DNA of 14,169 nt from a virus (Duplodnaviria > Heunggongvirae > Uroviricota > Caudoviricetes): the IMG/VR virus record IMGVR_UViG_2687453466_000005. The stretch is one strand, 5' to 3'. The notes beneath the pieces are model-generated. The model had not been told where the DNA came from, did no database searches, and was given only the letters and a program-made list of their open reading frames with translations. Position numbers and translations under genes: made by a program. Below, in pieces: positions 1,928 to 2,760 of this stretch. Position 1 is the stretch's first letter; every line of letters starts with the position of its first letter.

Positions 1928-2760
1928 TTATTTCTGTAATCGGTTTATATTAACGTAAAGCATCTCGATTAGTTCTTTTGCATTTTTACTATAGTGCAAT
2001 TCTCTATGGCAATTCGGACAAAGGGCAACACAGTTATCTGTTGTATCAGCACCACCTGAAGACAGGGGAATTACATGATGTACTTCCAAATATGGGTTTC
2101 CATCATTTAAATAAAACGGAGCATTTTTACCACAGTTTTCACATATACCTTTACTTTGCTGTAAAATCCAAGCTTTTACCATCGGGTCTCGGACATAAAC
2201 TTTTTGTAGTCTTTCTACCTCAACTGGTTTCCTGGAGCCTCGGGTTGACTCAACGTTTTCTTAATTAATTTACTAACCCTCATATTCAGAAGCGATTCAT
2301 CATCTGTAGGCTGTGAAAGCTCTGATAGTTCTCCACGTATTATAGACGCCCAAAAACTGTCACTATAAATACCTGGAACATTTATCAATATTCGTTTCGT
2401 TCTATTGCCGGAAGGAATTTCCTTTCTCCCCGTACGACTAAAATAAGCCTGATAACCACACATCTTCAAGCGTATATCGCGGGGGCTATTACCAATCAAA
2501 GTAAAATATTCACCAGGATGGATTTTTCTTTCATCCAAAGAATGCATATGTTTTCTGACTGATGATGACGCCAGATATACTACGACTTGGGATACACCAG
2601 AATCAACCAACCGTTCAATGATATAATCAAGAGCGATATTGTAATCTTTGTTTCTGTCACCCGGCCCCCACGACTCAAGGATTAGACCATAAACACCATC
2701 CTCTTCACCTATCGAACACTCAGCTTTCAGTTCAATTCCATTATTATCAAAAACATGCAT
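1928..2760 (-). pseudogene. mcrA: mcrA, type IV modification-dependent HNH restriction endonuclease, disrupted by a frameshift
   Basis: 181-aa ORF (2215-2760) and 84-aa ORF (1928-2182) lie in different frames on the minus strand; the second carries the CxxC...HH...N...CxxC-H HNH motif; total span is 833 nt, one short of a 277-codon gene plus stop. Confidence 0.75.

What the first reader, a model, noticed from the sequence alone, without database searches (positions are those of the whole stretch)
1928..2760. mcrA is split between its N-terminal domain and its HNH nuclease domain by an apparent 1-bp deletion
Two minus-strand ORFs (181 aa from 2760 to 2215, and 84 aa from 2182 to 1928) are in different frames. 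The downstream frame is open back to about 2260 and reads ...ESTRGSRKPVEVERLQKVYVRDPMVKAW..., so the pieces overlap by about 45 nt and would join into one 277-aa HNH endonuclease if a single base were restored. The break maps to a short C/G run near 2237-2240: the sequence has GAGGC where an intact frame needs GAGGGC on the coding strand. The window would then carry an inactive type IV restriction gene, or an 84-aa free-standing HNH fragment with its own ATG. A homopolymer sequencing error is the alternative.
Basis: partly seen in the sequence, partly recalled or inferred. Interest (0 to 1): 0.6.

Follow-up and report, generated by a model that had tools for sequence, protein, structure and literature searches.

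The report
Frameshifted mcrA restriction gene in e14
The window carries the well-known E. coli K-12 prophage gene mcrA, which cuts methylated foreign DNA, with one G missing from a GGG run; as written this gives a dead enzyme, and it is either an ordinary knockout mutation or a base-calling error.

Summary
Window 1928-2760 (minus strand) is mcrA of the e14 prophage of E. coli K-12. It is identical to the reference gene at 833 of 834 positions. The one difference is a missing G in the GGG at codons 174/175 (window 2238-2239, CC on the plus strand).

- **Products as written:** a 181-aa ORF (native residues 1-174 plus the tail APGNQLR) and an out-of-frame 84-aa ORF (residues 194-277, the HNH catalytic core).
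- **Comparison set:** all 331 finished RefSeq E. coli genomes that carry this segment have GGG and one 277-codon frame.
- **Expected phenotype:** the 1-174 fragment has been studied. It is a monomer that binds 5mC DNA, does not cleave, and does not give full restriction. If the deletion is real, the strain is McrA-minus.
- **The 84-aa piece:** it lacks the dimerisation elements and the modification sensor, and has only a weak ribosome-binding site.
- **Recoding:** no slippery site is present, so programmed frameshifting is not supported.

Mutation versus base-calling error cannot be settled without reads. I put it at about 50% mutation and 42% error. Either way this is a trivial lesion in a fully characterised gene, so interest is low.

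Noticed in passing: a 242-bp deletion truncates the e14 integrase.

The parts
1928..2760 (-). mcrA (e14 prophage) with a 1-nt deletion, 833 nt instead of 834
   Evidence: 100% identical to K-12 mcrA except for one missing G. Annotated as mcrA in C600/MG1655 at the matching position.
2238..2239 (-). Contracted run: GG on the coding strand where every reference has GGG (third base of codon 174 plus first two of codon 175)
   Evidence: All 331 of 331 RefSeq complete genomes with this segment carry the extra base.
2215..2760 (-). 181-aa ORF plus stop: native McrA residues 1-174, then the frameshift tail APGNQLR and TAG
   Evidence: identical to PDB 6GHC over residues 1-174. No Pfam hit.
2332..2760 (-). 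Codons 1-143: the NEco 5mC/5hmC-sensing N-terminal domain, intact
   Evidence: Matches PDB 6R64/6T21/6T22 (N-terminal domain) over residues 1-143. Domain limits are from PMC6182155.
2215..2260 (-). 46-nt stretch where both reading frames are open
   Evidence: It contains no X_XXY_YYZ slippery heptamer.
1928..2182 (-). 84-aa ORF plus stop: McrA residues 194-277, now out of frame with the start of the gene
   Evidence: The identical 84-aa product is annotated as 'HNH endonuclease' in other assemblies that have a broken mcrA. Pairing to the anti-Shine-Dalgarno sequence is weak, -3.0 kcal/mol over 3 bp.
1994..2143 (-). Pfam HNH (PF01844) catalytic core with both CxxC pairs and the HH motif
   Evidence: residues 14-63 of the 84-aa ORF, which are 207-256 of intact McrA, E = 6.8e-16.
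1882..1895 (-). Terminator-like hairpin followed by a T-rich tail, downstream of the mcrA stop
   Evidence: This is a consensus scan only.

Best explanation
This is the e14-prophage gene mcrA, which encodes EcoKMcrA, a type IV modification-dependent HNH restriction endonuclease. It carries a spontaneous 1-nt contraction of the GGG run at codons 174/175, which makes a null allele. Translation from the normal start gives a 181-aa protein: residues 1-174 plus seven foreign residues. That protein keeps the whole 5mC/5hmC-reading N-terminal domain and the first helices of the HNH domain. It lacks the crossover strand, the zinc-binding CxxC pairs and the catalytic His residues. It should be a monomer that can bind Y5mCGR DNA but cannot dimerise or cut. 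The HNH core downstream (residues 194-277) is out of frame. At most it is made in trace amounts by re-initiation at an ATG with a poor ribosome-binding site, and it would lack the sensor domain and much of the dimer interface. Net effect: the strain is McrA-minus (RglA-minus). It would accept M.HpaII-type methylated plasmids and plate T4gt phage. Shown here: gene identity, the lesion, and the domain content of both ORFs. Taken from the literature: the behaviour of the 1-174 fragment. Inferred: that the deletion is in the DNA of the strain rather than only in the assembly, and that the 84-aa piece is not functional.
For: - **Lesion and identity:**
- **Context:** the window is K-12 e14, with the icd' remnant, mcrA and pinE through xisE, intE and lit.
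- **Domain content:**
- **Published data on exactly this truncation point:** the EcoKMcrA-N construct (residues 1-174) is monomeric and binds methylated DNA specifically. It lacks nuclease activity and does not give full restriction of M.HpaII plasmids at low or moderate expression. It blocks T4gt plaque formation only at low phage titre. Dimerisation runs through HNH residues 147-276, including the crossover strand 179-191 (PMC6182155).
- **The assembly looks accurate:** all 242 homopolymers of 4 nt or more in the window agree with K-12, except one G8 tract read as G7. G7 is a true polymorphism in the DH5alpha and NEB 5-alpha assemblies. Length-dependent homopolymer error would not be expected to hit a 3-mer first.
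- **The source is a diverged lab lineage:** it carries a second private lesion in e14 that cannot be a base-calling error, a 242-bp deletion in intE.
- **Seen elsewhere:** the same allele occurs in three K-12-identical SRA assemblies (L007, L008, L010).
- **Precedent:** McrA loss is routine in cloning strains.
Against: - None of 331 finished genomes has the allele.
- It was absent from the GTDB species representatives and the JGI metagenome contigs.
- No published allele was found.
- Both single-base differences between the window and K-12 are contractions of G/C runs, and there are no substitutions in 14 kb.
- The identical contraction appears in three different mcrA haplotypes. Two of the assemblies that carry it, L003 and L004, differ from each other by sporadic homopolymer indels. 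That is what a site-specific base-calling artefact would look like.
- The truncated IntE product of this window is on record nowhere. The K-12-like SRA runs are therefore probably not the same strain.
Confidence: 0.5

Rival explanations
1. Base-calling or assembly artefact. The strain has a normal GGG and an intact 277-aa McrA, and the assembly under-called the run by one base.
For: - The lesion is a 1-nt contraction of a G/C homopolymer. The only other single-base difference from K-12 in the window is also a contraction, G8 to G7.
- No finished genome has the allele.
- The same contraction recurs in three unrelated mcrA haplotypes, only in SRA-derived contigs. The two lineage-A contigs compared, L003 and L004, differ by sporadic 1-nt homopolymer indels, for example in icd and pin.
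- One K-12-like contig ends exactly at the G-run upstream of iraM, as expected when run length varies among reads.
- Other public assemblies show mcrA 'broken' at its other G-runs. G4 at nt 330 is contracted in three indel-rich assemblies. G5 at nt 92 is contracted in L013 and in L021.
Against: - The window is otherwise very clean. All 241 other runs of 4 nt or more, including the 78 runs of 5-7 nt, match K-12.
- G7 is a genuine polymorphism.
- Error models that scale with run length predict that longer runs fail before a 3-mer.
- The 242-bp intE deletion shows that the source really differs from standard K-12.
Confidence: 0.42
2. A working two-piece enzyme. The 181-aa sensor and the 84-aa HNH fragment are both made and reassemble into an active restriction complex.
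For: Both ORFs are open, and the 84-aa ORF starts with ATG 33 nt after the upstream stop. Annotation pipelines call the 84-aa piece a gene.
Against: - Residues 175-193, including the crossover strand 179-191 that holds the dimer together, are encoded by neither piece.
- The Shine-Dalgarno match is weak.
- The arrangement is not conserved: 331 of 331 finished genomes have one frame.
- Catalytic-site integrity within one polypeptide is needed for restriction.
Confidence: 0.03
3. Programmed -1 ribosomal frameshifting or a phase-variable contingency switch that restores full-length McrA in a fraction of cells.
For: The two frames overlap by 46 nt. mcrA is seen broken at G-runs in several public assemblies.
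Against: - There is no X_XXY_YYZ heptamer anywhere in the 181-codon ORF.
- The tract is only 2-3 nt long, far below known contingency tracts.
- The tract is invariant (GGG) in 331 finished genomes.
Confidence: 0.02

Closest known systems
EcoKMcrA (McrA/RglA of E. coli K-12 prophage e14; PDB 6GHC)
   Same: The nucleotide sequence is identical at 833 of 834 positions. The genomic position is the same, between the icd' remnant and pinE in e14. The N-terminal domain and the HNH core coding sequences are the same.
   Different: One G is missing at codons 174/175, so the sensor and the catalytic core are no longer in one reading frame.
EcoKMcrA-N, the engineered 1-174 fragment of Czapinska et al. 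2018 (PMC6182155)
   Same: The natural 181-aa ORF ends its native sequence at exactly residue 174, the boundary of the published construct. That construct is monomeric, binds 5mC DNA specifically, is nuclease-dead and is restriction-deficient.
   Different: Here the fragment carries the 7-residue tail APGNQLR instead of a His tag. It would be expressed from the single-copy native promoter, not from a plasmid.
e14-minus (McrA-minus) alleles of laboratory strains (DH10B, ER2796, ER1821, JM83, K802)
   Same: The expected phenotype is the same: loss of McrA restriction in a K-12 background.
   Different: Those strains lost mcrA by excision of the whole prophage. Here e14 is retained, its integrase is truncated, and mcrA is inactivated by a point lesion.
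Other disrupted mcrA copies in public assemblies (W31* nonsense; G-run contractions at nt 92 and nt 330)
   Same: The upstream part is broken and the same 84-aa HNH ORF is left behind.
   Different: The sites differ. W31* (G92A) is a substitution shared by four assemblies, so it is probably a real natural allele. The nt-330 contraction occurs in assemblies with 7-35 indels per 12.7 kb, so it is probably an error there.

Membership tests
EcoKMcrA-type modification-dependent HNH restriction endonuclease | N-terminal NEco modified-cytosine-sensing domain (residues 1-143) | tested here: met
   The 181-aa ORF is identical to PDB 6GHC over residues 1-174 and to 6R64 over residues 1-143.
EcoKMcrA-type modification-dependent HNH restriction endonuclease | C-terminal HNH beta-beta-alpha-Me motif with two CxxC pairs and catalytic His residues | tested here: met
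   PF01844 HNH, E = 6.8e-16, in the 84-aa ORF. The sequence is identical to the reference.
EcoKMcrA-type modification-dependent HNH restriction endonuclease | Sensor and nuclease joined in one polypeptide, with an intact HNH dimerisation region (147-276) | tested here: not met
   The frameshift at codon 175 leads to a stop at codon 182. Residues 175-193 are not encoded in frame by either ORF.
EcoKMcrA-type modification-dependent HNH restriction endonuclease | Location in prophage e14 next to pinE at the icd attachment site | tested here: met
   The window is collinear with K-12 e14.
EcoKMcrA-type modification-dependent HNH restriction endonuclease | Restriction of 5mC (M.HpaII) plasmids and 5hmC (T4gt) phage | not testable with these tools
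   This needs the source strain. The published 1-174 fragment does not give full restriction.
Programmed ribosomal frameshift gene | Slippery heptamer in the overlap, and a two-frame arrangement conserved in relatives | tested here: not met
   No X_XXY_YYZ site is present. 331 of 331 finished genomes have a single frame.
Phase-variable contingency locus | Long simple-sequence tract in the coding region whose length varies among close relatives | tested here: not met
   The tract is 3 nt long and invariant in finished genomes. The contracted form was found only in 11 SRA-derived contigs; two of them, L003 and L004, differ from each other by sporadic homopolymer indels.

The most novel reading that the evidence does not exclude
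The deletion is real and the strain stably makes a stand-alone 20-kDa methylcytosine/hydroxymethylcytosine reader (NEco domain) from an e14 prophage that can no longer excise because its integrase is truncated. This protein would bind Y5mCGR sites without cutting. It could mildly interfere with modified phage or plasmids, or shield modified DNA from other type IV enzymes. The same G-run contraction would then be a recurrent, selected route to McrA loss in several E. coli lineages.
Probability: 0.05. Interest if true: 0.3.

Novelty: already known. Interest (0 to 1): 0.1.

Why it matters
Its value is practical. If the deletion is real, the source K-12 derivative is McrA-minus while still carrying e14. 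That matters for anyone using the strain to clone CpG-methylated DNA or to plate 5hmC phage. Its genotype should then read mcrA(fs175), not e14-minus. If the deletion is an error, it shows how a one-base under-call creates a spurious 'HNH endonuclease' gene call. The same 84-aa protein is already deposited in NCBI from other assemblies with a broken mcrA. Neither outcome opens a new biological question.

Tried and rejected
- **Search for the allele in finished genomes.** I searched 5,426 RefSeq complete E. coli genomes with 901-nt and 81-nt queries. None has GG; 331 have GGG.
- **Exact 30-mer across the lesion.** There were no hits in the GTDB species representatives or the JGI metagenome contigs.
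- **intE deletion junction.** There were no hits in the same collections or in the RefSeq complete genomes.
- **Exact-protein look-ups.** The 181-aa product exists only in 11 Logan (SRA-derived) contigs. The 313-aa truncated IntE exists nowhere.
- **Literature search for a described mcrA frameshift allele.** The DH10B, ER2796, ER1821R, K802 and JM83/XL1-Blue papers all describe e14 loss or other lesions, not this one. One search was wasted on word-start matches.
- **SRA run accessions in the literature.** This was meant to reveal the sequencing platform and found nothing.
- **High-quality reference for the non-K-12 lineage that carries the same contraction.** No finished E. coli genome covers 80% or more of that locus.
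- **Programmed frameshifting.** Rejected because there is no slippery heptamer.
- **Argument from 'the only indel lies in mcrA'.** Rejected because both this window and the comparison loci were selected for having a broken mcrA, which is ascertainment bias.
- **Anton and Raleigh 2004.** This linker-scanning study of McrA is not held in the library.

Full report
**What the window is.** The 14,169-nt window is the e14 cryptic prophage end of E. coli K-12. It runs from ycgX and iraM across the icd' remnant into mcrA, pinE, the invertible tail-fibre segment and the regulatory genes, then xisE, intE and lit. Against K-12 strain C600 (matched equally by MG1655 records) it differs at only three places:
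- a G8 tract upstream of iraM reads G7 (window 1020-1026);
- one base is missing in mcrA (window 2238-2239 is CC where the reference has CCC);
- 242 bp are missing at the 3' end of intE (junction at 13229/13230).

There are no substitutions.

**Checking the observation.**
- The minus-strand ORFs are 2215-2760 (181 aa) and 1928-2182 (84 aa).
- The downstream frame is open back to 2260 and reads ENVESTRGSRKPVEV..., so the frames overlap by 46 nt.
- On the coding strand the window has CCCGAGGCTCC where the reference has CCCGAGGGCTCC. This is at mcrA nt 522-524, the third base of codon 174 plus the first two of codon 175.
- The other 833 positions are identical, and restoring one G gives the 277-aa McrA exactly.
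- All 331 RefSeq complete E. coli genomes that contain this 81-nt segment carry the extra base. None matches the window at 100%.

**Anatomy of the two pieces.**
- The 181-aa ORF is identical to the EcoKMcrA crystal-structure sequence (6GHC) over residues 1-174 and then reads APGNQLR-stop.
- The 84-aa ORF equals residues 194-277. It contains the Pfam HNH core (residues 207-256 of the intact protein) with both CxxC pairs and the HH motif.
- The structure paper places the N-terminal sensor domain at 1-143, a 3-residue linker at 144-146, and the HNH domain at 147-276. The HNH domain includes a domain-swapped N-terminal part and a crossover beta-strand at 179-191 that ties the dimer together (PMC6182155).
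- The break is therefore not at the domain linker, as the finding's title implies. It lies about 28 residues into the structural HNH domain, ahead of the crossover strand and the catalytic core.
- Residues 175-193 are encoded in frame by neither ORF.

**What it would do.** The native part of the 181-aa product ends at exactly the boundary of a construct that has been characterised, EcoKMcrA-N (residues 1-174). That fragment is a monomer and binds methylated DNA specifically, with a DNase I footprint only on methylated DNA. It has no nuclease domain. It does not give full restriction of an M.HpaII plasmid at low or moderate expression. It prevents T4gt plaques only at low phage titre when expressed from a plasmid.

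Taken as written, the window encodes a McrA-minus allele that still makes a methylcytosine reader.

The 84-aa piece has only a 3-bp match to the anti-Shine-Dalgarno sequence (-3.0 kcal/mol). The native mcrA start is no better at -0.9 kcal/mol. The piece also lacks the sensor and much of the dimer interface, so I regard it as non-functional. This is an inference.

There is no X_XXY_YYZ slippery heptamer in the ORF, and the two-frame arrangement is absent from all finished genomes. Programmed recoding is therefore not supported.

**Real mutation or artefact?** This could not be settled.

Evidence for a real mutation:
- The window agrees with K-12 at all 242 homopolymers of 4 nt or more except the G8 tract.
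- G7 at that tract is a genuine polymorphism. DH5alpha and NEB 5-alpha have G7, while MG1655, C600, DH1 and RR1 have G8.
- A length-dependent homopolymer error would not be expected to hit one of 502 three-base runs first.
- The source strain carries a private 242-bp deletion that no base-caller would create.
- The identical allele is present in three K-12-identical SRA-derived contigs: L007, L008 and L010.

Evidence for an artefact:
- Both single-base differences from K-12 are contractions of G/C runs.
- No finished genome, GTDB species representative or JGI metagenome contig has the allele.
- The same contraction turns up in three different mcrA haplotypes, all in SRA-derived contigs.
- L003 and L004, two of the lineage-A contigs that carry it, differ from each other by sporadic one-base homopolymer indels in icd and pin.
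- One K-12-like contig stops exactly at the G7/G8 tract.
- mcrA appears broken at its other G-runs in other assemblies. G4 at nt 330 is contracted in three assemblies with 7-14 indels per 12.7 kb. G5 at nt 92 is contracted in L013 and in L021, a contig from another SRA run.
- The truncated IntE product of this window is not on record in any assembly. The K-12-like SRA runs are probably different strains, so a real allele would need several independent identical events.

I put the odds near even, with a slight lean to a real mutation.

**Comparison with what is known.** This is EcoKMcrA itself, not a relative of it. All defining sequence features are present except the one that matters for activity, which is sensor and nuclease in one chain.

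Laboratory McrA-minus strains described in the literature lost the gene by excision of e14: DH10B, ER2796, ER1821R and JM83. CGSC lists K802 as 'e14 mutant, mcrA0'. I found no published point allele of this kind.

A natural nonsense allele, W31* (G92A), exists in four unrelated assemblies. This shows that mcrA pseudogenes do occur.

**Verdict.** The feature is a trivial lesion, or a miscall, in a fully characterised gene. Novelty: already known. Interest: low.

Noticed in passing
window 12300-13241 (+), junction at 13229/13230: A 242-bp deletion relative to K-12 (C600 locus L002 13732-13973) removes the last 198 nt of intE and 44 nt downstream, leaving a 313-aa ORF instead of 375 aa. The Pfam Phage_integrase match covers only profile positions 2-96 of 172, so the C-terminal catalytic half is gone and e14 probably cannot excise. 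The junction is in no RefSeq complete E. coli genome, GTDB representative or JGI metagenome contig, and the product is on record nowhere.
   Followed up: partly
window 13229 compared with L026 (DH5alpha NZ_CP025520) 1640-1663: The left breakpoint of the intE deletion lies 8 bp from the site where IS3 is inserted in intE of DH5alpha, an insertion also reported for XL1-Blue in PMC11148124. The deleted stretch spans that insertion site. This could be coincidence, a local hotspot, or imprecise loss of an IS3.
   Followed up: partly
window 1020-1026: The G-run upstream of iraM is G7. MG1655, C600, DH1 and RR1 have G8. DH5alpha, NEB 5-alpha and many natural isolates have G7. The tract is length-polymorphic in the iraM upstream region.
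   Followed up: partly
L017-L020 (mcrA nt 92): Four assemblies (three ENA records and one NCBI draft assembly) share a G92A substitution that turns Trp31 of McrA into a stop. This is a probable genuine natural pseudogene allele, and it leaves the same 84-aa HNH ORF.
   Followed up: no
L003-L006 and L011, compared with L021: A non-K-12 lineage carries an e14-like remnant next to an intact icd and a DUF3626 gene. Five 2012 SRA runs of it have the same mcrA G3-to-G2 contraction as the window. A 2018 run of the same lineage instead has G5-to-G4 at nt 92. No RefSeq complete E. coli genome covers 80% or more of this locus.
   Followed up: partly
window 3483-5321 compared with L026: The invertible P segment is in the C600 orientation. 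DH5alpha shows three 1-nt homopolymer deletions in this segment relative to the window. NEB 5-alpha annotates the tail genes there as frameshifted.
   Followed up: no
window 2867-3457 (-): The pinE ORF extends 12 codons upstream of the annotated 184-aa start, to an ATG at 3457 (196 aa). Gene callers on K-12-like SRA contigs chose the 196-aa form.
   Followed up: no
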